Shown: positions 50,271 to 59,498 of the stretch, piece by piece | Position numbering within the stretch: position 1 is the stretch's first letter | How the letters are laid out: every line of letters begins with the position of its first letter | Origin: Thermoleophilia bacterium | GTDB lineage: Bacteria > Actinomycetota > Thermoleophilia > Gaiellales > Gaiellaceae | Assembly (NCBI GenBank): GCA_025928515.1 | Contig: JAICJI010000007.1 | Location: forward strand, 1,335 to 65,334 | Length of the DNA stretch: 64,000 nucleotides | Direction: 5' to 3' | Program-made: the position numbers and the translations under genes | Notes under the pieces: generated by a model | What the model saw: only the letters and a program-made list of their open reading frames with translations | Told to the model about the DNA's origin: nothing | Databases searched by the model: none

Positions 50271-50981
50271 GTGGCTAGCATTCGCCTCGTGGACGGCCAG
50301 TACGTCGCGTACACGTTCTTCCGCGTCGATCCGGCGTGGCGGCGGCTGCCGGCCGAGGAGCGGCAGGCGCACAAGGACGCGTTCGCGGAGGTCGTCGAAG
50401 ACTTCGCCGAGCGGTTCGAGCACCTGCGCGCCTACTCGACGACGGGCGTACGGCCCGACTCAGACTTCTTCCTCTGGAAGATCTGCGAGCGCTACGACCT
50501 GCTCGAGGAGCTCGGCACAGCGCTCAACGCGACCCCGCTCGCCGGCTGGCTCGAGACGACCTACTCGTACCTCGCCACGACGAAGGCGTCGCAGTACACG
50601 AGCGCCCGCAAGGCACGCAAGATCACGCCGCACGGGCTGCCGTATCTCGTCGTCTACCCGTTCGTGAAGATGCGACCGTGGTACGCGCTGACCGAGGAGG
50701 AGCGGCAGCGGGCGATGGACGAGCACATCCGGATCGGCCGCGAGGAGTTCCCGGGGATCAAGAACCACACGACGTACTCGTTCGGGATCGACGACCAGGA
50801 GTTCATGACGGCCTTCGAGTGCGAGGAGCCCGCCGACTTCATGCACCTGATGCTGCGACTCCGCGACAGCGAGGCCTCGCGCTACACCGAGCGCGACACG
50901 CCGATCTTCGTCGGTCGCTTCGTGCCGGTGCGAGAGGCGCTCGCGGCGCTCGACGGCGCGTCGGCCCGCGTCGAGGCCTAA
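50271..50981 (+). CDS. hemQ: coproheme decarboxylase (chlorite-dismutase-family HemQ/ChdC)
   Basis: 236 aa with YTFFRVDPAWRRLPAEER, YVVYPFVKMRPWY and the two ferredoxin-like halves typical of HemQ. Confidence 0.85.
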   Translation: MASIRLVDGQYVAYTFFRVDPAWRRLPAEERQAHKDAFAEVVEDFAERFEHLRAYSTTGVRPDSDFFLWKICERYDLLEELGTALNATPLAGWLETTYSYLATTKASQYTSARKARKITPHGLPYLVVYPFVKMRPWYALTEEERQRAMDEHIRIGREEFPGIKNHTTYSFGIDDQEFMTAFECEEPADFMHLMLRLRDSEASRYTERDTPIFVGRFVPVREALAALDGASARVEA

Positions 50982-53900
50982 CCGCAGACGCGGGAATACG
51001 CCCGCCCGCCCACGAAGCGTTGCCACTCCTCAGGCGTGAAGTTGCGGCCGGCGACCGCACAGGCGTGTTGCTCCCAGGCGTCGAGCGAGATCGGCCAGCG
51101 GTAGGCGGTTCCGTCGCCGAAGACGTAGATCAGGTACCGCCCGTCGGGCGTGTAGCCGATGTTCCCCCACTGGCCCGCACCGCCGGGGAAGTCCGAGCCA
51201 AGCTGTTGCTGGGTGGCGGTCACCCAGATTCTCGCGCCGCCGCTCGAACCGCCGGTCGTGGCGAAGGTCTTTCCGTCGGGCGCGAACGCGATGCCGGCGA
51301 GGGGAGCCGGGGCGACGAGCGTCTGGTGCCCGATGCTCTGCCCCGTCTTCGGGTTCCAGAGATCGACGATGCCGCTCCAGGCGCCCGTCGCGAGCGTGCC
51401 GTCGGGCGAGAAGGCCAGGGCGGTGATGCCACCGTTCGCGGCCTTTGGCTCGAGTATGCGCTCGACCTTCCCAGTCGCGGTCTCGACGATGAGAACGTGT
51501 GCGGCGCCGGCCCCCACCGGCTCGGTGCCGACTGCAGCCGTCGAACCGTCCGGCGAGAGCGCGACGGTGTCGCCGAATGTGTGCAAGTTCAGCGGCTTCC
51601 CGCCGGAGAGCTTCCCGTCGCGCCAGACTGCGAATTCGCCCTCCTGCGGCGGCCCCGCGTTCTTGGGCGCGGGCCCATACCAGCCGTCGGTCGCCGCGAC
51701 GACGCGACCGCCTTCGGCGGTCGCGAGCGAGCGGACGAGCGCCTGGGGAGACAAGCCCCGGAGCTTGTTCTCCGGGTGCGCGGTCCGGGTGCCTACGTTC
51801 CAGAACTGGACGAGCCCACGGTCTCCACCCAGCACGAAGCGCTTCCCCGCCCATGCTCCGGCACCGACGTTGCGCCCGCGGGCGAGCGCGACGGTGTCCA
51901 CGTGTCTGAGTGACACCGCGGAGTAGATGTCGACCCGCGACTGCGAGGCGCTCGCGGCGAAGAGCCCGCCGCTCGGTGCGACGGCCAGCAGCGGCGAGGG
52001 CGGCGTGGCCGGAGACAGGGTGGTCGAGTCGGAGATCACGTGAGGGAACGAGAATTGCCGTCCGAACCTCCTGCTCGTGCCGAGGTCCCACTCGAAGGTG
52101 GCCCCGTCGAGGCTCGAGGTGAAGAGCGTTCGGCCGTCGTTCGTGAGCGCCGCGCCGAGTACCCGTCCGGCATGGCCGTACAGCCGCTCTACGCGCGTCC
52201 GGGCTCGGACGTTCCAGACGATCACGGATCCGTCCTCGGCGGTCGACACCAACTGCCTTCCGTTCGGCGAAAAGGCGAGCGTGACGACGGGGGCGCTATG
52301 ACCTCCTTGCCCGATCTTCTGCTGTCTTGTCCCGAGGTTGACGAAGGTGACCGACCCTGTGTCCGAGCCCACGGCGAGCGTCGACCCGTCGGGACTGACC
52401 GCGGTCGATCCGTTGAGCGGTGAGACGCTCACGCGGCGAACTACGTCGAGTTTCTTCGTGTCGAGGAACGTGACCGTCGACGTCCCGACAACCGCGAGCT
52501 CATGTCCCCTGTCGACAAGAGCCGCGCTGTTGACACCGTCAGCACCGACTGGGGCCGCCTTGGCCGTGAGCTTGCCGGTGGCCACGTTCCAGCGATCGAC
52601 GAACGCCGCGGTGCTGGGAGCCGGGGGAGTCAGCTGATAGACGTAAAAGAGCATCCGTCCGTCGGGGCTGAAGAAGAGAGGAACGTTCGGGTTGGTGGCC
52701 GGATTGTGCAGCCACTGGGGATCGAAGGGAAGCAGCCGTTGGACCGCGAGCGTGCGCGCGTTCGCGACTTCGACGTACTCCACGCCCTCCTTCGGGCTCG
52801 TGAAGAACGCGAACGAAGAGCCGCCTGCGTTGAACGCGGGGGGATCTCCGAAGGCAGATCTCCTGAATACGTGCAGCGTCTTGCGAGTCCGAGGGTCGAC
52901 GAGCCGCAAATGGTCGGCGTTGTCGGGAATACCGAGGACCGAGCCGTCGGGGCTCACGCTGGTCGCGCAGCAGGGACGCACGGAGTCCGGGACGGTGAAC
53001 GTGGCGATGGCAGCCGGTGACCGCAGCAAGGTCGCGAGCAGCGTCCCTTCGGTCTGAGGTGAGTCGTCGAGGTTCAGCGACTCGCGGGCGAGCAGCATGG
53101 CGATGTCGATCCGCGGCTCCGAGACCGCTTCGGCGCCGAGCTGGCGGCCGAGCGCGACGGTGGCCTCGTGCTGCGCGCTCGAGCGCGACGCGAGCGCGAG
53201 CGCGCCCGCGATGATCGCGAGGACGAGCAGCCCGACAGCGCCGGCAAGCAGCGTCCTCAACCGCCGGTTCCGCTGCCGCTCGCGCGCGAGCTCGAGCTCG
53301 TTCGCGGTGCGGCTGGCATCGACGAACTCGCGCTCGAGCTCCGTCAGTGCGATCGTCAACTCGGCGGCGAGCGCGTCGAACTGGGCGAGGTTGCTGCCGC
53401 GCAGCAGATAGCTCGGCTCGCGGTCGGCGTCTTCCCACTCCCGCGCCGCCGAGGCGAGCCGACGGTGCAGGCGCACCTGTTCACGTCCGCTGTCGATCCA
53501 GCGGCGGAACCTCCCCCACTCGCGCATCAGCGCCTCGTGCGCGACCTCGATCGTGGGCGTCCCGGTGCGCGGGTCGCGGTCGAACGAGAGCAGGCGCCAC
53601 GCGCCGAACGCCTGGATCGCCTCCTCGAGCGCGTCCTGGTCGACCTCCATCGACGCCAGCTCGGTCCGCTCGACGCGGCGCCGTGTGTCCTCGGCTCCCT
53701 CGCCGAGCGTGACGAGCCGGAGGAAGAGCTGGCGCGCGGCCTCCTGTGCCTGCTCCCCGAGCCCGTCGTAGATCTCCTCGGCACGGCCCGCGAGAGCGCC
53801 CGAGACGCCGCCGATCGTGCGGTAGGCGTCCGCCGTGAGGGTGTTTCCCTCGCACCGCTCGTAGAGCTCGGTCAGCGCGTACTGGAGCAGGGGCAGCGCG

Positions 53901-55198
53901 CCGGGCGCGTCGGCAACGTCTGCCACGAGCTGAGCGGTCAAGCCCGGCTCGAACCTGGCGCCGACGCGCTCGGCCGGGCCGGCGATCGCTCGCTCGAACT
54001 CCTCGGCTCGCAACGGCACGAGCGCCTCGACGTAGTCCCGCAGCAGCTCCGCGAAGCCGCTGTAGAGCAGCGGGCGGTCGTAGAAGTCGGCGCGGAGGGT
54101 GACGACGACGCGAAGCCTCGCGTGCGGGTCGGTGACCGCACGCTCGAGCAGCGCGAGGAACTGCGTCCGGCGGGTCTCGTCCTCGACCAGTGTGAACACC
54201 TCCTCGAGCTGGTCCACGACGAGCACGAGCTCGGACTCGTCGGCGGCGAGGAGACGCTTGACGGCGCGCAGCAGGCCTCGCTCGTCCTGTTCGAGCTGCT
54301 CGAGCAAGCCCGGCTCGGGCCTGTCCGCAGCGCGCAGAAGTGCCGCCTCGAGCTCCTCGAGCGGGTACGCACCGGGGAACATCTCGACGACGTACCAGTG
54401 CTCGGAGCCTGGCAGCGCGCCCGCCCGGAGCCGCGGCAACAGCCCGGCACGGACGACGGACGACTTGCCGCTTCCGCTCGGCCCGACGACGGCGAGGAAG
54501 CGCGTGGACTCGAGCCGCTCGACAAGATGCTCCGTGAGCGCCTCCCGGCCGAAGAAATCCTCCGCGTCTTGCTCGCCGAAGGCGCGCAGTCCCTTGTACG
54601 GATTCCGGGTGTCGCCCGCGCCGGTCGCGGCGGGATCCAGCGCCCGGCGGAACGCAAGCTCGCGGGCGACGTCCTCACGCTCGGGTCGAACGGCGACCAC
54701 GTCCATCGGCTTCTCGAGCCCTTTGAGCCGCACCGCGCCACGCTCGACGTACTCGAGCCCTTCGACCTTTCGGGCGAGGTGCGCAACGCCCGGACTGATG
54801 AGCACCTCTCCCGGTCCGGCGATGGAGCAAAGCCGAGCCGCGAGGTTGAGCGCTCCACCGCGGTAGCCGCCGTCGACCGGCACGGCCTCGCCCGCGTCGA
54901 GCCCGATCCCGACCGCAAGTGGAAGGCTCGGATCGGCGACCGTCTCCGCGACGAATTGCTCCTGCAGCTCCGACGCCGCACGCAGCGCCTGCCGCGCCGA
55001 GTCGAATACCGCGAGCGCCTCGTCGCCTCGCAACTCGACGAGCGTCCCGCCGGCGGCCTCGATCGCTTCGCGCGCCAGCTCGGCGAACCGCGTCGCGAGC
55101 CGCGCGGCCGCCTCGTCCCCGCGCTCCTGCGTGAACCGCGTATATCCGCGAACGTCCGCGATCAGGAACGTCTTGATCCCGGCTTCGACAGCCGCCAT
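50978..55198 (-). CDS. multidomain signalling protein: class III nucleotidyl cyclase - nSTAND P-loop NTPase - TM helix - WD40 beta-propellers
   Basis: 1406 aa. The cyclase region contains FLIADVRGYT..RGDEALAVF..GGALNLAARLCS..GEVLIS. The NTPase region contains NPYKGLRAFGEQDAEDFFGRE, GPSGSGKS (nt 54484-54461) and LVLVVDQLEE. The hydrophobic segment is LLAGAVGLLVLAIIAGALALA (nt 53254-53189). WD40 repeats include GHSAPVVTLAFSPNGRQLVSTAEDGSVIVWNV. Confidence 0.85.
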   Translation of the reverse strand: MAAVEAGIKTFLIADVRGYTRFTQERGDEAAARLATRFAELAREAIEAAGGTLVELRGDEALAVFDSARQALRAASELQEQFVAETVADPSLPLAVGIGLDAGEAVPVDGGYRGGALNLAARLCSIAGPGEVLISPGVAHLARKVEGLEYVERGAVRLKGLEKPMDVVAVRPEREDVARELAFRRALDPAATGAGDTRNPYKGLRAFGEQDAEDFFGREALTEHLVERLESTRFLAVVGPSGSGKSSVVRAGLLPRLRAGALPGSEHWYVVEMFPGAYPLEELEAALLRAADRPEPGLLEQLEQDERGLLRAVKRLLAADESELVLVVDQLEEVFTLVEDETRRTQFLALLERAVTDPHARLRVVVTLRADFYDRPLLYSGFAELLRDYVEALVPLRAEEFERAIAGPAERVGARFEPGLTAQLVADVADAPGALPLLQYALTELYERCEGNTLTADAYRTIGGVSGALAGRAEEIYDGLGEQAQEAARQLFLRLVTLGEGAEDTRRRVERTELASMEVDQDALEEAIQAFGAWRLLSFDRDPRTGTPTIEVAHEALMREWGRFRRWIDSGREQVRLHRRLASAAREWEDADREPSYLLRGSNLAQFDALAAELTIALTELEREFVDASRTANELELARERQRNRRLRTLLAGAVGLLVLAIIAGALALASRSSAQHEATVALGRQLGAEAVSEPRIDIAMLLARESLNLDDSPQTEGTLLATLLRSPAAIATFTVPDSVRPCCATSVSPDGSVLGIPDNADHLRLVDPRTRKTLHVFRRSAFGDPPAFNAGGSSFAFFTSPKEGVEYVEVANARTLAVQRLLPFDPQWLHNPATNPNVPLFFSPDGRMLFYVYQLTPPAPSTAAFVDRWNVATGKLTAKAAPVGADGVNSAALVDRGHELAVVGTSTVTFLDTKKLDVVRRVSVSPLNGSTAVSPDGSTLAVGSDTGSVTFVNLGTRQQKIGQGGHSAPVVTLAFSPNGRQLVSTAEDGSVIVWNVRARTRVERLYGHAGRVLGAALTNDGRTLFTSSLDGATFEWDLGTSRRFGRQFSFPHVISDSTTLSPATPPSPLLAVAPSGGLFAASASQSRVDIYSAVSLRHVDTVALARGRNVGAGAWAGKRFVLGGDRGLVQFWNVGTRTAHPENKLRGLSPQALVRSLATAEGGRVVAATDGWYGPAPKNAGPPQEGEFAVWRDGKLSGGKPLNLHTFGDTVALSPDGSTAAVGTEPVGAGAAHVLIVETATGKVERILEPKAANGGITALAFSPDGTLATGAWSGIVDLWNPKTGQSIGHQTLVAPAPLAGIAFAPDGKTFATTGGSSGGARIWVTATQQQLGSDFPGGAGQWGNIGYTPDGRYLIYVFGDGTAYRWPISLDAWEQHACAVAGRNFTPEEWQRFVGGRAYSRVCG

Positions 55199-55246
55199 CG
55201 GGGGATCGTGCGCTTCGGCGCGAGCTAAATCAAGACCGCGGTGCGA

Positions 55247-55621
55247 TCACACATACGTGTGCTGGTCGCGCCACGTGCGCCACATGGCGAGGCCGCAGAG
55301 CGCGAGCACCGCGACGAAGGCGAGCACCTGGTAGCCGACCGCCCCGCCGTACCAGTAGACACCGACGTCGGCGACGGCCACGATCGCCGCGCCGTAGAAG
55401 ACCGTCTGCGCCCGCTGAGGCCACATCGAGATGCCTTCACGCCGGTCGCGCCAGACGAGGAAGACGAAGTAGGCGATCGCCAGCATGAAGGCGACGCGCG
55501 CGAGGACACTCAGCGCCAGCAGCGTCTGCTCGAGCTGGAACACGACGATCAGCCCCGCGATGACCGCGAGGATCACCATCCCGCGCAAGAACGGGTTGAT
55601 GCGGGAGAAGAAGCTGTTCAT
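55247..55621 (-). CDS. small 4-TM membrane protein
   Basis: The start is taken at ATG 55621 (MNSFFSRINPF), which forms an ATGA overlap with the upstream stop. It has four hydrophobic helices. Confidence 0.5.
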   Translation of the reverse strand: MNSFFSRINPFLRGMVILAVIAGLIVVFQLEQTLLALSVLARVAFMLAIAYFVFLVWRDRREGISMWPQRAQTVFYGAAIVAVADVGVYWYGGAVGYQVLAFVAVLALCGLAMWRTWRDQHTYV

Positions 55622-55974
55622 GTGGCCGTCAAATACGCCCGCACCGCGAGCGCTCCTGCCACCAACGTAGCGCCGGTGAACCACGCCAGCCGTCCGCGGC
55701 GCTCGTTCGGCGCGTACATCCAGGGCGCGAGCACGGCGAGCAGCGAGAGCGTCCCGTAGAGGTAATGAAGCTTGTCTGCCGCTCGATGATGGCTCGAGAG
55801 AAGCAGGAGCCCGATGCCGACCTGGGCGACGAGCAGCGTCTGGGCGAGTGCGAGCAGGTGTGTGAGGAGCCCACGCGGCTCAGCCCGGCGGTAGTACGTC
55901 CAGGCGCCTGCCCCCGCGGCGCCGAACGTGGCAGCGAGAACCGCGAACGCGACCGCATGGTGGACGCCGAGCAT
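55618..55974 (-). CDS. small 4-TM membrane protein, His-rich loops
   Basis: 118 aa with hydrophobic helices and conserved-looking His residues (SSHHRAADKLHY). Confidence 0.5.
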   Translation of the reverse strand: MLGVHHAVAFAVLAATFGAAGAGAWTYYRRAEPRGLLTHLLALAQTLLVAQVGIGLLLLSSHHRAADKLHYLYGTLSLLAVLAPWMYAPNERRGRLAWFTGATLVAGALAVRAYLTAT

Positions 55975-56008: not shown

Positions 56009-56818
56009 CTATTCGGTGTCGGTCTGGCCGGGATCCGGCGCAGGAGCGGGAGGCGTCCCCTCGTCCGGCGGCGGATACGGCTCGGGCACCTGCGCCGGCG
56101 TCGGCGGATTCCCCTCGTCCGGGGGCGGGTACGGCGCGCTCGGTTCGTTTGGGGTGACCATCATCGTCTGCTGTACCGGAAGTCGCGCGCGACGAATCCT
56201 CTCGTCGGCACCGGCGAGCTGCTCTGCGAGCGCGTCTTCGATCCGTTTCGCCTCCTGCTCGAGCTCCACGAGCTGCTCCCGCGCCTGGCGCTCGGCATTC
56301 GAGTCGCTTCGCCAGACGGCCTCGCCGAGCGCCTGCAGTGCCGGACCTCGCTCGTACGTGATCGCATCGAGCCGCGACCGCGTGCGCCAGCGGTTGACGG
56401 CGGTATCGAGCTTCGTGCGCCAGATCTCCGCAGCGGTCGCCGCATGTGCGCGGCCGTCGGACGCGAGGCGTGAGGAGTGCTGCGCCCACTCGTCGGCGCT
56501 CCGTCGCGTCGTTTCCCCGAGAGCTGCGAGCAGGATCAGCGCCAGGATCAGTAGACCGATCGCCCAGCCCCAGCTTCCGGTCGCGAAGAGCCCGATCGCG
56601 GCTCCGACTGCCGCAAATCCGAGGCAGAGGAGGACGAAGCGCGCGGGCAACCCGAGCCAGCGCCGTTCGACGCTCTCCCGCACGACGGGGCCGGGAACGG
56701 TCTCGAGCAGCGGCAGCTCGGCCACCGCCGCGCCGCAGCTCGGGCAGAAGCGCGCGCTCTGCACGAGCTCCTCGCCGCAGCTACGGCACGCGCTGTCCGC
56801 GATCGGTGATGCGCTCAT
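56009..56818 (-). CDS. zinc-ribbon membrane protein with coiled-coil and Pro-rich repeat tail
   Basis: The N-terminus is CRSCGEELVQSARFCPSCG, followed by two TM helices and a helical region. The C-terminus repeats PYPPPDEG(N/T)PP twice. Confidence 0.6.
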   Translation of the reverse strand: MSASPIADSACRSCGEELVQSARFCPSCGAAVAELPLLETVPGPVVRESVERRWLGLPARFVLLCLGFAAVGAAIGLFATGSWGWAIGLLILALILLAALGETTRRSADEWAQHSSRLASDGRAHAATAAEIWRTKLDTAVNRWRTRSRLDAITYERGPALQALGEAVWRSDSNAERQAREQLVELEQEAKRIEDALAEQLAGADERIRRARLPVQQTMMVTPNEPSAPYPPPDEGNPPTPAQVPEPYPPPDEGTPPAPAPDPGQTDTE

Positions 56819-57119
56819 GTCCGGCTTGTGCCCCGCCTTCGAGCGCTCGTAACGCCTCGGCAGCCCGCCTGCGCAACGGGCCGACCTGCGCGCGGTAGTC
56901 GACGTCGGACACCTTGCCGGTGCGATGGTCGAACTCGAGCTCCTTCAGCGCCGCCAGGGCGCGATCCCGCTCCTCCGCGAGCGCGAGCCGCTGCCTCGCC
57001 TCGGGTGCGAGCTCGTCGAGCCGGTCGCTCGCGGGTGACGGATCGCGGAGGAACGGCCGCGCGACGAAGACGACGGCGACGACCGCGAGCATCGCCGCGA
57101 CGGCGAGCGGCCACCCCAC
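56781..57119 (-). CDS. CcmI-like N-terminal module (TM helix plus helical domain)
   Basis: 112 aa. The TM helix is PLAVAAMLAVVAVVFVA, followed by LAALKELEFDHRTGKVSDVDYRAQVGPLRRRA. This resembles the CcmI-1 region (L..EL..D...G.i....y) from memory. It has no Cys, so it is not a CcmH. Confidence 0.45.
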   Translation of the reverse strand: MGWPLAVAAMLAVVAVVFVARPFLRDPSPASDRLDELAPEARQRLALAEERDRALAALKELEFDHRTGKVSDVDYRAQVGPLRRRAAEALRALEGGAQAGHERITDRGQRVP

Positions 57120-57120
57120 G

Positions 57121-59091
57121 TCAGATTCCCGCTGGAGCAGCGCCGGCCGCGTACCGCGCGGCGAGCCGCCGCTGCTCGACCGCGTCTGGCCACATCGCGA
57201 TCAGCGCTCCCGCCACGAAGACGAAGCCGGCGACCCAGATCAAGTTGATGAGCGGTTTCACGAACACCTGGAAGTCGATCTTGTCGACCCTCCCGTTCTT
57301 CGTCGGCAACGCCTGCGCCCTCGTGAAGACGTCGCCGATCGAGCGCGGGTCGTGGTAGATCGAGGCCTCGGTCGCCCACCCTTCGATGGCGTAATGGTTC
57401 TCGCCGGGCTTGAGGGTGAATCGCTCGCCGTGGCCGGATACAGGGATGAGCGCGCGATAGCCCGTGTAGTTCGCTCCGCGCACGCCGGCACTCCCGGCGT
57501 ACGTGAACGTGTAGCCCGCCGCCGTGATCGACTGGCCGGGGCTGAGCACGCGCTCGCGCACCGTCTGGTACGCGCTCGAGCCCGCGATGCCGATCGCGAG
57601 CAGGACGACCGCGGCGTGCACGACATAGCCGCCGTAGCGCCGCCGGTTGCGTGCAATGAGATGGAAGACTCCGCCTGCCGCCGCTCGTCCACGCACGAAC
57701 TCGAGCACGATCGACGCGGCGACGAAGGACCCGAACGAGTACGCGAGCAGGCCTGGCCACGAGCTCCCGAAACCGAGCGCGAGCAGCACGGCACCGGTCA
57801 CGACCGCTGTGACAAAGGGGATGAGGAACGTCTTCCCGAGCGAGCGAAGCGACGCCCTCCGCCAGGCCACGAGCGGCCCAAGCCCCATGAGCAGCAGCAG
57901 CGGCAGGCCGAACGTGTGGAGGAAGAAGTCGTAGTACGGCTTCGAGACCGACCGCGTCTCGCCGCGCAGGGCCTCCGAGACGATCGGGTAGAGAACGCCC
58001 CAAAGGATCGTCAGCGCCAGGGCGACGAGCAGCAGGTTGTTGTAGAGGAAGGTCGCCTCCCGCGAGACGAGCGACTCGAGCTTCGTCTTCGTCCGCAGTA
58101 GCGGCAGGCGCCAGCGGATCAGCGCCACCGAGAGGAAGATCATCAGGCCGAGGAAGGCGAGGAACCAGCCGCCGATCGGGCTCCGCGAGAACGAGTGGAT
58201 TGAGTCGACGACGCCCGAGCGGGTGAGGAACGTCCCGAACAGCGAGAGGTTGAAGGCGAGTGCGACGAGCACCATGTTCCAGACCTTCAGCATCCCGCGC
58301 TTCTCCTGGATCATCACCGAGTGGAGGAACGCGGTCGCGGCGAGCCACGGCATGAGCGCTGCGTTCTCGACCGGATCCCAGGCGTAGTAGCCGCCCCAGC
58401 CGATCTCGACGTACGCCCAGTGGGAGCCGATCAACTGGCCGACGCCGAGGAACGTCCAGGCGGCGAGCGTCCACCGCCGCGTCGCGACGATCCAGCGCTC
58501 GTCGGTCCGTCCCGAGAGCAGCGCGCCCATCGCGAAGGCGAACGGGACGGTGAGGCCGACGTAGCCGAGATAGAGCAGCGGCGGGTGGGCGAGCATGTAC
58601 GGGTTCTGCAGGCTCGGCACCATCCCCTTGCCGTCGCCCGCAGCCGGCTGCATGTGGAACGGGCTGGAGACGAAGCAGAGCATGAAGGCGAAGAAGACGC
58701 CGACGAGCCCGAACACGGGCACGGTCCAGGCGATCAACTCGCGCGAGCGGCGGTTGAGCCAGACGGCGAGGCCGCCGTAGCCGGTGAGCACGAGCAGCCA
58801 GAGCAGGAGCGAGCCCTCCTGGCCTCCCCAGAAGGCGGACAGCGCGTAGCCGAGAGGCAGCTTGTGACTCGTGTGCTGCCAGACGTAGACGAAGGTCATG
58901 TCGCGGCGGCCCAGCGCGACGAGCAGCACGATCGCGGCGACGAGCGTCACCGGGAACGCGGCGAGGAGCGCGTTCTGTGCCGACAGGGCGAGCCTCCGTC
59001 GCCGCTTCCAGGCGGCGTACGAGCCCGCGATCAGCGCATAGAGGACAAGGCCGAAGGCGAGGAGGAGCGCAGCGCGCCCGAGCGGGGCCAT
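57121..59091 (-). CDS. ccmF: cytochrome c-type biogenesis heme lyase subunit CcmF
   Basis: Polytopic protein with the WWD motif GWGGYYAWDPVENAALMPWL. The start is taken at ATG 59091, which forms a TAATG overlap with the ccmE stop. Confidence 0.92.
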   Translation of the reverse strand: MAPLGRAALLLAFGLVLYALIAGSYAAWKRRRRLALSAQNALLAAFPVTLVAAIVLLVALGRRDMTFVYVWQHTSHKLPLGYALSAFWGGQEGSLLLWLLVLTGYGGLAVWLNRRSRELIAWTVPVFGLVGVFFAFMLCFVSSPFHMQPAAGDGKGMVPSLQNPYMLAHPPLLYLGYVGLTVPFAFAMGALLSGRTDERWIVATRRWTLAAWTFLGVGQLIGSHWAYVEIGWGGYYAWDPVENAALMPWLAATAFLHSVMIQEKRGMLKVWNMVLVALAFNLSLFGTFLTRSGVVDSIHSFSRSPIGGWFLAFLGLMIFLSVALIRWRLPLLRTKTKLESLVSREATFLYNNLLLVALALTILWGVLYPIVSEALRGETRSVSKPYYDFFLHTFGLPLLLLMGLGPLVAWRRASLRSLGKTFLIPFVTAVVTGAVLLALGFGSSWPGLLAYSFGSFVAASIVLEFVRGRAAAGGVFHLIARNRRRYGGYVVHAAVVLLAIGIAGSSAYQTVRERVLSPGQSITAAGYTFTYAGSAGVRGANYTGYRALIPVSGHGERFTLKPGENHYAIEGWATEASIYHDPRSIGDVFTRAQALPTKNGRVDKIDFQVFVKPLINLIWVAGFVFVAGALIAMWPDAVEQRRLAARYAAGAAPAGI

Positions 59092-59498
59092 TACGTGTTC
59101 GAGGACTTGGCCGGCTTGTAGTGATCCGGGCACTTGGCGATCATCGAGCCCGGCTGCGCGACGAAGACGCCGTTGCGCATCGTCCCGTTGACCACGATGT
59201 CGCTTCCCGACTTGACCAGGTCGGGGACGCTGCCGTGATAGACGACCGCGACGCGCGCCGGGTTCGCCGAGTGGGCGTCCTTGAGCATGAAGCGCATGCC
59301 TGCCTGCGTGTGAGCGGCGGGGATGTTCGGCTTACCGACGACGGCGCCGACGAGCGCGACGCTGCCCGTGTGGCCGGCGAGCGTGCTCGGCCGGAGCTGC
59401 GCGACGCCGTTGCCGGCGATTGCCGTGTACACGACGAAGATGGCCAGAGCGGCCGCCACGGAGAGAGCGATTACAAGCCGCGCAGGACTCGATCCCAC
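59091..59498 (-). CDS. ccmE: heme chaperone CcmE, variant with Cys in place of the heme-binding His
   Basis: An N-terminal TM anchor and an OB-fold. The C-terminal motif MIAKCPDHYKP aligns with the canonical LAKHDENYTP, giving CxxxY instead of HxxxY. Confidence 0.85.
   Translation of the reverse strand: MGSSPARLVIALSVAAALAIFVVYTAIAGNGVAQLRPSTLAGHTGSVALVGAVVGKPNIPAAHTQAGMRFMLKDAHSANPARVAVVYHGSVPDLVKSGSDIVVNGTMRNGVFVAQPGSMIAKCPDHYKPAKSSNT

What the first reader, a model, noticed from the sequence alone, without database searches (positions are those of the whole stretch)
50978..55198. Giant one-polypeptide cyclase - nSTAND NTPase - TM - WD40 protein: candidate ligand-gated second-messenger generator
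Seen in sequence:
- This is the largest ORF in the window (1406 aa).
- aa 1-170 form a class III nucleotidyl-cyclase domain with both metal-binding Asp positions (IADVRGYT, RGDEALAVF) and the NLAAR motif.
- aa ~198-600 form a STAND-type P-loop NTPase with the hallmark NPYKGLRAFGEQDAEDFFGRE, Walker A GPSGSGKS and Walker B LVLVVDQLEE.
- One Arg-flanked 21-residue hydrophobic segment follows (nt 53254-53189).
- About 730 aa of WD40-like blades follow, enough for two propellers.

Established knowledge:
- STAND NTPases oligomerise when their repeat sensor binds a ligand.
- Class III cyclases are active only as dimers.
- Cyclase-fold enzymes act as signal generators in cyclic-nucleotide-based defence systems such as Pycsar.
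- N-terminal effector + STAND + repeat sensor is the layout of Avs/NLR-like conflict proteins.

Inference: sensor-driven oligomerisation could switch on cNMP synthesis directly.

Two oddities remain:
- The predicted TM helix would put the propellers on the opposite side of the membrane from the NTPase. That is not how STAND sensors are thought to autoinhibit.
- No cNMP-binding effector is visible nearby.
Basis: partly seen in the sequence, partly recalled or inferred. Interest (0 to 1): 0.7.

Follow-up and report, generated by a model that had tools for sequence, protein, structure and literature searches.

The report
Membrane-spanning STAND receptor nucleotide cyclase
This 1406-residue protein is real and is best read as a single-pass membrane receptor: a fast-evolving double beta-propeller outside the cell is linked, through an NLR-type ATPase switch inside, to an enzyme that makes a cyclic-nucleotide messenger, a layout the standard model of such switches does not explain.

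Summary
ORF 50978-55198(-) encodes a class III cyclase (aa 8-172), nSTAND1 NTPase (aa 200-595, 419 bits), one hydrophobic helix (aa 645-675) and two seven-bladed propellers.

- **Cyclase:** the metal and transition-state residues are intact. The substrate pair is Glu/Gly, as in guanylyl cyclases. These residues decay mainly in paralogues that gained a SARP DNA-binding domain.
- **The "odd" helix is a real membrane span, and a family trait.** It occurs in 70 of 80 relatives, always with more Arg/Lys on the N-terminal side. In close relatives the propellers are replaced by extracellular solute-binding domains. The sensor is therefore outside the cell, unlike Avs or Apaf-1.
- **Relatives' outputs:** mostly SARP, Ser/Thr kinase and HTH; fewer carry TIR or caspase.
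- **Context:** housekeeping genes. No defence island, no cNMP effector, no EACC1 partner.
- **Accessory gene:** 7 of 47 closely related metagenomic contigs carry it at this site; most of the rest have an empty site.
- **Propellers:** 35-66% identical between syntenic orthologues, against 80-95% for flanking genes.

Most likely it is a ligand-gated transmembrane STAND receptor cyclase. Its biological role is unknown. It is a new variant of a known kind.

The parts
50978..55198 (-). Whole gene, 1406 aa plus stop codon: cyclase, nSTAND1, TM helix, double propeller
55199..55246 (-). 48-nt 5' leader. Together with the ORF it makes up the whole segment that is missing from 'empty-site' relatives
54683..55177 (-). 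Class III nucleotidyl cyclase domain, aa 8-172. Metal-binding D15 and D59; transition-state N118 and R122; phosphate-binding K159; substrate pair E55/G111 (guanylyl-cyclase-like); G97 where a phosphate-binding Arg usually sits
54605..54682 (-). Low-confidence linker between cyclase and NTPase, aa 173-198
   Evidence: pLDDT below 50 at aa 191-197
53414..54601 (-). nSTAND1 STAND NTPase module, aa 200-595
   Evidence: E=3.5e-125
54461..54484 (-). Walker A motif GPSGSGKS, aa 239-246; invariant in 78 homologues
54200..54229 (-). Walker B motif LVLVVDQLEE, aa 324-333
53267..53413 (-). Helical connector ending in the Arg-rich cytoplasmic flank (RERQRNRRLR), aa 596-644
53174..53266 (-). Single transmembrane helix, aa 645-675 (core LLAGAVGLLVLAIIAGALALA), oriented N-in/C-out
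53009..53173 (-). Conserved extracytoplasmic juxtamembrane helices, aa 676-730. Mean identity 79%, pLDDT 95-98
52019..53008 (-). First beta-propeller, about aa 731-1060. This is the most variable part: 35-61% identical between syntenic orthologues
51089..52018 (-). Second beta-propeller, about aa 1061-1370
50981..51088 (-). C-terminal helical cap with two invariant cysteines, C1380 and C1405 (W..HAC.VAGRNFT.EEW.RFV......VC)

Best explanation
The gene encodes an accessory, single-pass transmembrane receptor cyclase built on a STAND switch.

Topology: the N-terminal class III cyclase and the nSTAND1 NTPase lie in the cytoplasm. One TM helix crosses the membrane. A conserved helical stalk and two seven-bladed beta-propellers lie outside the cell.

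Proposed mechanism (inferred, not shown): a ligand binds or cross-links the variable propellers outside. The change passes through the TM helix and the conserved juxtamembrane helices. The nSTAND1 modules then exchange nucleotide and oligomerise. This brings two cyclase domains into the head-to-tail dimer that class III cyclases need for activity, and a cNMP is made.

Product: the Glu55/Gly111 substrate pair predicts a GTP-accepting enzyme (cGMP, or mixed cGMP/cAMP) rather than a strict adenylyl cyclase.

The messenger would act on receptors encoded elsewhere in the genome. The protein is one output variant of a modular family with the layout [output]-nSTAND1-TM-[extracytoplasmic sensor]. Other members signal through SARP DNA-binding domains, Ser/Thr kinases, HTH domains, TIR domains or caspases.
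For: **Shown: fold and catalytic residues**
- Domain identities and folds are established.
- The residue set D15/E55/D59/G97/G111/N118/R122/K159 is almost invariant in the plain ~1400-aa homologues.
- The four core residues are intact in 83 of 85 plain forms but in only 6 of 18 forms with an added N-terminal SARP domain. This indicates selection on catalysis when the cyclase is the only output.

**Shown: substrate pair**
- E55 and G111 align with the E and G of the Ma1120 KDA-to-EGY mutant.
- K101E/D157G was the best guanylyl cyclase among the Ma1120 double mutants (PMC4215837).

**Shown: membrane span and orientation**
- The hydropathy peak is 2.62 and unique in the protein.
- An equivalent segment lies 30-50 residues after nSTAND1 in 70 of 80 relatives from several phyla.
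- K+R counts in the 15-residue flanks average 5.4 on the N side and 2.6 on the C side. The N side is higher in 66 relatives, tied in 4, and lower in none.
- AlphaFold draws one 74-residue helix, aa 620-693, through the segment.

**Shown: the sensor is outside**
- In relatives with 49-64% identical NTPase modules, the post-TM domain is a Bmp/PnrA or SBP_bac_1 extracellular solute-binding domain.
- One of these, L011, has an intact cyclase 67% identical to this one.

**Shown: signalling-type family**
- N-terminal modules among 73 relatives: SARP (BTAD in 32, Trans_reg_C in 29), Pkinase 28, HTH 10, TIR 9, cyclase 7, caspase 2.

**Inferred from established knowledge**
- STAND NTPases oligomerise on activation.
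- Class III cyclases are obligate dimers.
Against: - No enzymology, topology assay or oligomer data exist for any member of the family.
- The Pfam cyclase score is only just above its cut-off (23.9 against 21.9 bits).
- The phosphate-binding Arg of strand beta4 is replaced by an invariant Gly (G97), so activity could be low or unusual.
- In Ma1120 the E/G pair still left a preference for ATP, so the product cannot be called.
- How a STAND module can be controlled by a sensor it cannot touch is unknown.
- Degenerate cyclase-like domains persist between other outputs and nSTAND1 in some relatives (L047, L049 and the SARP forms). The domain may therefore also, or mainly, serve as a dimerising adaptor.
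- No cNMP receptor was identified. Only some of the window's genes were scanned against Pfam, and none of those had a cNMP-binding domain.
Confidence: 0.55

Rival explanations
1. It is an outside-in immune or conflict sensor. The hypervariable extracellular propellers would recognise non-self at the cell surface, such as phage particles, competitor molecules or kin cues. The cNMP would act as an alarm that activates effectors encoded elsewhere, making this a membrane-spanning analogue of NLR or Pycsar signalling.
For: - The gene is accessory: 7 of 47 related contigs carry it at this site, and 27 of the 40 that show cld instead have an empty site.
- The propellers are 35-66% identical where flanking genes are 80-95% identical. 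dN/dS is 0.22-0.57 in the propellers against 0.07-0.11 in the N-terminal half.
- nSTAND1 was defined in counter-invader systems (PMC8195603).
- Caspase and CHAT relatives carry the same TM helix, and TIR is the N-terminal module in 9 of 73 relatives.
- There are weak PycC matches.
Against: - There are no defence genes nearby, and PADLOC finds no system.
- No cNMP-activated effector is adjacent.
- The nearest relatives carry SARP or kinase outputs.
- Other cargo found at the same site is not defence-related: an IF-3 paralogue, a YciF-like protein and transporters.
- dN/dS stays below 1, and the raised dS suggests recombination or saturation rather than proven positive selection.
Confidence: 0.2
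2. The cyclase domain is mainly a non-catalytic dimerisation adaptor. The protein would then act as a scaffold or an ATPase-driven receptor with some other readout.
For: - Cyclase-like domains with destroyed catalytic residues are retained between SARP or kinase modules and nSTAND1.
- G97 replaces a phosphate-binding Arg.
- The Pfam score is marginal.
Against: - In this protein and in 83 of 85 other plain forms, all four core catalytic residues are kept.
- K159 and the E/G pair are conserved as well.
- No other output domain exists in the 1406 residues.
Confidence: 0.12
3. It is a cytosolic Avs/Apaf-1-like STAND protein. The hydrophobic helix would be buried or only peripherally membrane-associated, and the propellers would autoinhibit the NTPase directly.
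For: - The layout of effector, NOD and tandem WD40 propellers resembles Apaf-1, and Foldseek matches 3shf and 3sfz.
- WD40 repeats are typically intracellular (general knowledge).
Against: - The segment is 25 or more uninterrupted apolar residues, with a Kyte-Doolittle peak of 2.62.
- The positive-inside bias holds in 66 of 70 relatives with none reversed.
- The same position carries extracellular solute-binding domains in relatives.
- AlphaFold models the segment within a single 74-residue helix.
Confidence: 0.05
4. It is a housekeeping component functionally tied to its conserved neighbours: cytochrome c maturation (ccmE/ccmF), the small membrane proteins, or the chlorite-dismutase-like gene.
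For: The same gene order occurs in four related genomes: the window, L005, L006 and L010.
Against: - Most close relatives keep all the neighbours but lack this gene, with the flanking stop codons 3-25 bp apart.
- The more distant homologues examined (P0052 in L007, and L011) sit in unrelated contexts.
Confidence: 0.03

Closest known systems
Mycobacterial multidomain cyclases of the Rv0386 / Rv1358 / Rv2488c type (class III cyclase, P-loop STAND-like ATPase, helical repeats, LuxR HTH); recalled from memory
   Same: An N-terminal class III cyclase is followed directly by a STAND-type ATPase and a repeat region. The substrate-specifying pair is non-canonical. A protein with cyclase, AAA_16 and TPR_MalT domains sits near the homologue in L007. 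This cyclase type heads about 800 protein clusters.
   Different: Here the NTPase is nSTAND1. A TM helix separates it from the repeats. The repeats are extracytoplasmic beta-propellers rather than cytosolic TPRs, and there is no HTH domain.
Apaf-1 (CARD, NB-ARC, tandem WD40 propellers)
   Same: The order is effector, then NOD, then two tandem propellers. The propeller region matches 3shf and 3sfz.
   Different: Apaf-1 is soluble and its propellers contact the NOD. Here the membrane lies between them. The output is an enzyme that makes a messenger, not an adaptor.
nSTAND1 conflict-system proteins and the EACC1 two-gene system (Kaur et al. 2020, 2021; PMC7159879, PMC8195603)
   Same: The NTPase clade is the same. 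The papers note a cNMP cyclase replacing caspase at the N-terminus, and TM helices followed by extracellular PBP domains in the variable region.
   Different: There is no EACC1 gene upstream. The upstream genes are multi-TM proteins (about four hydrophobic stretches each by eye) that remain in place when the gene is absent. The locus is not a conflict island. The cyclase-nSTAND1-TM-WD40 combination and its topology are not described in those papers.
AfsR-type SARP-STAND regulators
   Same: Paralogues of this protein carry SARP (Trans_reg_C + BTAD) in front of the same NTPase. This shows the module is used for ordinary signal transduction.
   Different: AfsR is cytosolic, with NB-ARC and TPR domains. 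This protein has a cyclase output and a transmembrane sensor.
Pycsar (PycC cyclase plus a cNMP-activated effector)
   Same: It uses a cyclase-fold enzyme as signal generator. There are weak PADLOC PycC matches, 36.7 bits over aa 9-138.
   Different: There is no adjacent effector gene. The cyclase is closest to mycobacterial class IIIc enzymes. The control module is entirely different.
Single-pass receptors with an extracellular sensor and a cytosolic enzyme, such as M. tuberculosis PknD (kinase, TM, beta-propeller) and animal receptor guanylyl cyclases; recalled from memory
   Same: The topology and logic match: an extracellular ligand-binding domain, one TM helix, and a cytosolic enzyme that depends on dimerisation.
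   Different: None of these has a STAND NTPase between the membrane and the output.

Membership tests
Class III nucleotidyl cyclase (PF00211) | Sequence profile match above the curated threshold | tested here: met
   23.9 bits against a cut-off of 21.9 on the isolated N-terminus. phmmer against PDB gives 3mr7 at E=7e-18, plus Rv1900c and Ma1120. The margin is narrow.
Class III nucleotidyl cyclase (PF00211) | Cyclase homology domain fold | tested here: met
   Foldseek matches Ma1120 (4wp8, 5d0h) with TM-score 0.91-0.92 and rmsd 1.4-1.7 A over about 165 residues. It also matches Rv1264, Rv1900c and Cya2.
Class III nucleotidyl cyclase (PF00211) | Two metal-binding Asp plus the transition-state Asn and Arg | tested here: met
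   D15, D59, N118 and R122 are all present in 83 of 85 plain homologues.
Class III nucleotidyl cyclase (PF00211) | Lys/Asp substrate pair of adenylyl cyclases | tested here: not met
   The pair is E55/G111. These align with the E and G of the Ma1120 KDA-to-EGY mutant, so the pair is guanylyl-cyclase-like. This bears on specificity, not on family membership.
Class III nucleotidyl cyclase (PF00211) | cNMP synthesis as a dimer | not testable with these tools
   Requires enzymology.
nSTAND1 STAND NTPase (PF20703) | Profile match over the full module, with Walker A and Walker B | tested here: met
   419 bits, profile positions 1-378 of 379. GPSGSGKS and DQLEE are invariant or nearly so.
nSTAND1 STAND NTPase (PF20703) | NTP-dependent oligomerisation on ligand sensing | not testable with these tools
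   Inferred from STAND biology only.
Avs / antiviral NLR-like STAND | Match to known Avs or defence STAND models | tested here: not met
   PADLOC returns only weak PycC and mad3/mad8 P-loop matches, and no Avs match.
Avs / antiviral NLR-like STAND | Cytosolic sensor contiguous with the NOD | tested here: not met
   A TM helix lies between the NOD and the sensor. It has N-in charge bias, and the post-TM position holds extracellular SBP domains in relatives.
Avs / antiviral NLR-like STAND | Defence-island context | tested here: not met
   The neighbours are gap, whiA, uvrC, an amidohydrolase, a chlorite-dismutase-like gene, ccmE/ccmF and a phosphoglucomutase-family gene.
Pycsar | PycC-type cyclase | tested here: inconclusive
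   The best PycC model gives 36.7 bits, E=6.9e-10, and is partial. The closest structures are mycobacterial class IIIc cyclases.
Pycsar | Adjacent cNMP-binding effector gene | tested here: not met
   The indel contains only the leader and this ORF. The flanking genes have no cNMP-binding domain.
EACC1 two-gene system (Kaur 2020) | 3' gene with an N-terminal caspase or cNMP cyclase plus a variable region that includes STAND, repeats and TM | tested here: met
   The layout matches the description in PMC7159879.
EACC1 two-gene system (Kaur 2020) | 5' gene encoding the single-TM EACC1 protein | tested here: not met
   The upstream 124-aa and 118-aa proteins have several hydrophobic stretches by eye and no significant Pfam match. 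They are retained where the gene is absent. No EACC1-like ORF lies upstream of L007, L011, L047 or L049.

The most novel reading that the evidence does not exclude
STAND/NLR-type switches can be driven from outside the cell. In this reading the protein, and the wider [output]-nSTAND1-TM-[propeller or SBP] family, would be bacterial outside-in receptors. Rapidly diversifying extracellular propellers would recognise surface-exposed non-self, such as phage particles, competitors or kin. Recognition would trigger a cytosolic response: here a cGMP/cAMP alarm, and in relatives with the same TM helix caspase/CHAT proteolysis or SARP/kinase signalling. This would be functionally analogous to Toll-like receptors or receptor guanylyl cyclases. 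It would also require a STAND activation mechanism that does not rely on sensor-NOD contact.
Probability: 0.2. Interest if true: 0.85.

Novelty: new variant of a known kind. Interest (0 to 1): 0.6.

Why it matters
The accepted model of STAND/NLR activation has the repeat sensor clamp the NTPase until a ligand releases it. Here the two are separated by a membrane, and in close relatives the sensor position holds classic extracellular solute-binding domains. A different coupling mechanism must therefore exist, such as ligand-induced clustering or signalling through the helix.

The family is large. It occurs in Actinomycetota (including Streptomyces), Chloroflexota, cyanobacteria and myxobacteria. 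It uses interchangeable outputs, so one solved mechanism would explain many proteins.

The cyclase variant gives an easy biochemical readout for studying such a switch. The natural allelic series of propellers at a single, well-defined chromosomal site offers a tractable way to look for ligands.

It is also a candidate bacterial cGMP-forming enzyme. Few of these are known.

Tried and rejected
- **Defence assignment.** PADLOC gave only weak PycC and P-loop matches. The neighbourhood is housekeeping. Rejected as a filing; kept as a rival.
- **EACC1 partner.** The upstream small proteins have no significant Pfam match and stay in place when the gene is absent. Nothing EACC1-like lies upstream of distant homologues.
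- **Functional coupling to the 118-aa and 124-aa membrane proteins or the ccm genes.** Rejected because of the empty sites.
- **Internal DNA repeats in the propellers**, as in highly repetitive WD40 sensors. Tandem Repeats Finder found only trivial short repeats.
- **Mobile-element scars at the indel.** Reading the two junctions by eye showed no flanking repeats, and the segment holds no gene besides this ORF. No repeat search was run.
- **Literature.** Searches for nSTAND1, for STAND with cyclase and WD40, and for STAND with a transmembrane segment found no paper describing this architecture or topology.
- **Complete phyletic profile.** The genome-collection scan uses query-specific peptide patterns and keeps 80 loci. 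It shows breadth, not completeness.
- **dN/dS.** Nei-Gojobori estimates are rough. dS is near saturation in the propellers, so positive selection is not claimed.
- **Atomic checks.** Contacts of the TM helix and the Cys1380-Cys1405 distance could not be examined because model coordinates are not returned.
- **cNMP receptors.** They could not be searched genome-wide, because only this window is available.


Full report
**1.

ORF 50978..55198(-) starts with ATG and encodes 1406 aa. Its codon-position GC (GC3 0.87) is that of a real gene in this ~70% GC window.

- Pfam places nSTAND1 (PF20703) on aa 200-595 at E=3.5e-125, with WD40-type propeller models on aa ~865-1060 and ~1210-1326.
- Scanned alone, the N-terminus passes Guanylate_cyc narrowly: 23.9 bits against a cut-off of 21.9.
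- It matches solved cyclases by sequence: 3mr7 at E=7e-18, plus Rv1900c and Ma1120.
- An AlphaFold model of aa 1-700 (pLDDT 85) superposes on Ma1120 with TM-score 0.91-0.92 and rmsd 1.4-1.7 A. It also matches Rv1264, Rv1900c and the guanylyl cyclase Cya2.
- A model of aa 596-1406 (pLDDT 91.4, pTM 0.86) shows a helical stalk followed by about 53 strands. These form two seven-bladed propellers, closest to 2ymu, Apaf-1 and Aip1.
- The hydrophobic segment is the only one in the protein above Kyte-Doolittle 1.6. Its peak is 2.62 and it spans aa 645-675.

**2. The cyclase looks catalytically competent but is not a standard adenylyl cyclase**

I aligned 103 cyclase-bearing homologues and compared them with the structure-based alignments.

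- The metal-binding aspartates D15 and D59, the transition-state pair N118/R122 and the phosphate-binding K159 are conserved.
- The adenine-specifying Lys/Asp pair is replaced by E55/G111. These two residues align with the E and G of the Ma1120 KDA-to-EGY mutant (5d0g/5d0h).
- In Ma1120, K101E/D157G gave the best guanylyl cyclase activity of the double mutants. It still favoured ATP (PMC4215837).
- I therefore predict a GTP-accepting enzyme, possibly of dual specificity, and cannot call the product.
- One caveat: an invariant Gly (G97) sits where a phosphate-binding Arg is usual.

There is a natural control. The four core residues are intact in 83 of 85 plain ~1400-aa forms, but in only 6 of 18 paralogues that carry an extra N-terminal SARP domain (Fisher p about 1e-9, not corrected for phylogeny). 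Catalysis appears to be under selection when the cyclase is the sole output, and to decay when another output is present.

**3. The TM helix is real and family-wide, and it puts the sensor outside the cell**

I examined 80 loci recovered from species-representative genomes.

- 70 have a hydrophobic segment 30-50 residues after nSTAND1. They come from Actinomycetota (including Streptomyces), Chloroflexota, cyanobacteria and myxobacteria.
- The 15 residues before the segment hold on average 5.4 Lys+Arg, against 2.6 after it. The N-side is higher in 66 cases, tied in 4 and never lower. This is the positive-inside signature of an N-in helix.
- AlphaFold draws one continuous 74-residue helix through the segment.
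- The domain after the helix is WD40 in 47 of 66 relatives.
- Eight of the other relatives were scanned individually. The post-TM domain is a Bmp/PnrA substrate-binding domain in L011, L025, L030, L037 and L048, and an SBP_bac_1 extracellular solute-binding domain in L013, L016 and L028.
- L011 has an intact cyclase 67% identical to this one and an NTPase 65% identical.
- The C-terminal cap carries two invariant cysteines. This is compatible with a disulfide in an exported domain. I could not measure their distance.

The NTPase and the output are cytosolic, and the sensor is extracytoplasmic.

**4. What the family does**

N-terminal modules among 73 relatives are as follows:

| Module | Relatives |
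|---|---|
| SARP: BTAD / Trans_reg_C | 32 / 29 |
| Ser/Thr kinase | 28 |
| HTH | 10 |
| TIR | 9 |
| Cyclase | 7 |
| Caspase | 2 |
| CHAT | 1 |
| LuxR | 1 |

- Of ten WD40-type relatives scanned individually, eight carry SARP and two carry a kinase. By their C-terminal sequences most of these share this protein's two-cysteine cap.
- Modules can be stacked. L011 is SARP-BTAD-kinase-cyclase-nSTAND1-TM-Bmp.
- Caspase and CHAT versions also have the TM helix.
- The cyclase type itself heads about 800 clusters of long ATPase proteins. This echoes the known mycobacterial cyclase-ATPase-TPR proteins (from memory).
- nSTAND1 was defined in counter-invader systems. Kaur et al. noted cNMP cyclase replacing caspase, and TM helices followed by an extracellular PBP domain, in the EACC1 system.
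- Here, however, there is no EACC1 gene, no PADLOC system and no defence neighbourhood.

**5. Population genetics of the locus**

In three related genomes (L005, L006, L010) the gene sits in the same block:

ccmE - ccmF - 112 aa - [variable] - 118 aa - 124 aa - TARGET - chlorite-dismutase-like gene (convergent) - uvrC - aldehyde dehydrogenase - whiA - gap

It is nevertheless not a core gene. I used the upstream 118-aa protein as a probe against metagenome contigs.

- 47 contigs from close relatives were informative. Their 118-aa probe protein is 75-96% identical to the window's.
- 7 carry the gene 45-52 bp after the 124-aa gene.
- 40 show the chlorite-dismutase-like gene instead.
- In 27 of those 40, the two flanking stop codons are only 3-25 bp apart.
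- The rest hold other cargo: an IF-3 paralogue, a YciF-like protein, a TSUP-like permease, or a MacB-like ABC cluster.
- The indel is exactly the 48-nt leader plus the ORF. By eye the junctions show no flanking repeats, and the segment contains no recombinase gene.

Where the gene is present, identity to the window copy differs sharply by region:

| Region | Identity between syntenic orthologues |
|---|---|
| Flanking genes | 80-95% |
| Cyclase | 91-94% |
| nSTAND1 | 87-92% |
| TM stalk | 82-84% |
| First propeller | 61%, 35%, 45% |
| Second propeller | 66%, 60%, 44% |

- dN/dS rises from 0.07-0.11 in the N-terminal half to 0.22-0.57 in the propellers.
- dS roughly doubles in the propellers. 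This suggests sensor exchange by recombination or saturation. Positive selection is not demonstrated.
- A more distant homologue (P0052) lies beside an integrase, a resolvase and two other cyclase proteins.

**6. Interpretation**

The best-supported reading is an accessory, ligand-gated, single-pass receptor cyclase.

- Shown: the anatomy, the topology evidence, conservation of the catalytic residues, modularity, accessory status and sensor hypervariability.
- Inferred: that ligand binding outside drives nSTAND1 nucleotide exchange and oligomerisation, which dimerises the cyclase.
- Unknown: the ligand and the biological role.

The defence-like reading keeps some weight because of the patchy distribution and the variable sensor. 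It lacks every positional or model-based hallmark that was tested. A cytosolic Avs-like reading and a housekeeping reading are disfavoured.

**7. Novelty**

The components and the general idea of a cyclase on a STAND ATPase are known. The literature has glimpsed TM-plus-PBP variants.

I found no description of the following points in the literature searched:
- a STAND switch systematically split from its sensor by a membrane;
- the cyclase-nSTAND1-TM-double-propeller form;
- its Glu/Gly cyclase;
- its behaviour as a single-gene indel with hypervariable propellers.

I rate it a new variant of a known kind, of moderate to high interest.

Noticed in passing
window 50981-55247 junctions; loci L088-L167: The gap between the convergent 124-aa membrane-protein gene and the chlorite-dismutase-like gene is a flexible islet. 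It is empty in most relatives, with the stop codons 3-25 bp apart. Elsewhere it holds an IF-3 paralogue (~960 bp), a YciF/DUF892-like protein with a TSUP-like permease, or a MacB-like ABC cluster.
   Followed up: partly
P0066, P0069, P0070, P0080, P0082, P0086, P0087, P0114-P0117: SARP-fused paralogues keep a cyclase-like domain whose metal-binding or transition-state residues are destroyed (D59A, D15Y/G/N, R122L). The domain seems to be retained as a structural adaptor.
   Followed up: partly
L011:6063-11045: One polypeptide stacks SARP, BTAD, Ser/Thr kinase, an intact cyclase, nSTAND1, a TM helix and a Bmp/PnrA substrate-binding domain. That is three potential outputs on one transmembrane STAND receptor.
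   Followed up: partly
window 50981-51088 (aa 1371-1406); C-termini of L018, L041, L043, L052, L068, L073, L077 and others: A C-terminal cap motif with two cysteines, (A/I/V)C...(R)(N/D)LT..EW..(Y/F)....Y...C, is conserved from this protein to Streptomyces relatives. It may form a disulfide, which would fit an exported domain.
   Followed up: no
window 55247-55621(-), 55618-55974(-), 56781-57119(-): Three small membrane proteins (124, 118 and 112 aa) without Pfam families follow ccmF. They are 84-94% conserved in all related contigs, whether or not the cyclase gene is present. They may belong with the System I cytochrome c maturation genes.
   Followed up: partly
window 56009-56818(-): This gene encodes a zinc-ribbon protein with, by eye, two hydrophobic helices and a Pro-rich tail. 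It is itself variable: no gene is called at this position in L005, and a sulfatase-family gene occupies it in L006.
   Followed up: no
L007 (GCA_038230035.1), 1-20140: The 58%-identical homologue P0052 lies among a phage-type integrase, a serine recombinase, a LipJ-like hydrolase-cyclase and a cyclase-AAA_16-TPR_MalT protein. This is a mobile-looking cluster rich in cyclases.
   Followed up: no
window 51089-53008 compared with 53009-55177: Synonymous divergence from the syntenic orthologues roughly doubles in the propeller-coding half (dS 1.0-1.4 against 0.5-0.6). The homologue ranking by N-terminal identity also differs from the ranking by C-terminal identity. Both hint at a recombination breakpoint near codon 730.
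   Followed up: partly
window 57121-59498(-): ccmE and ccmF (System I cytochrome c maturation) are present in what appears, from the nearest named homologues, to be a Gaiellaceae-like actinobacterium.
   Followed up: no
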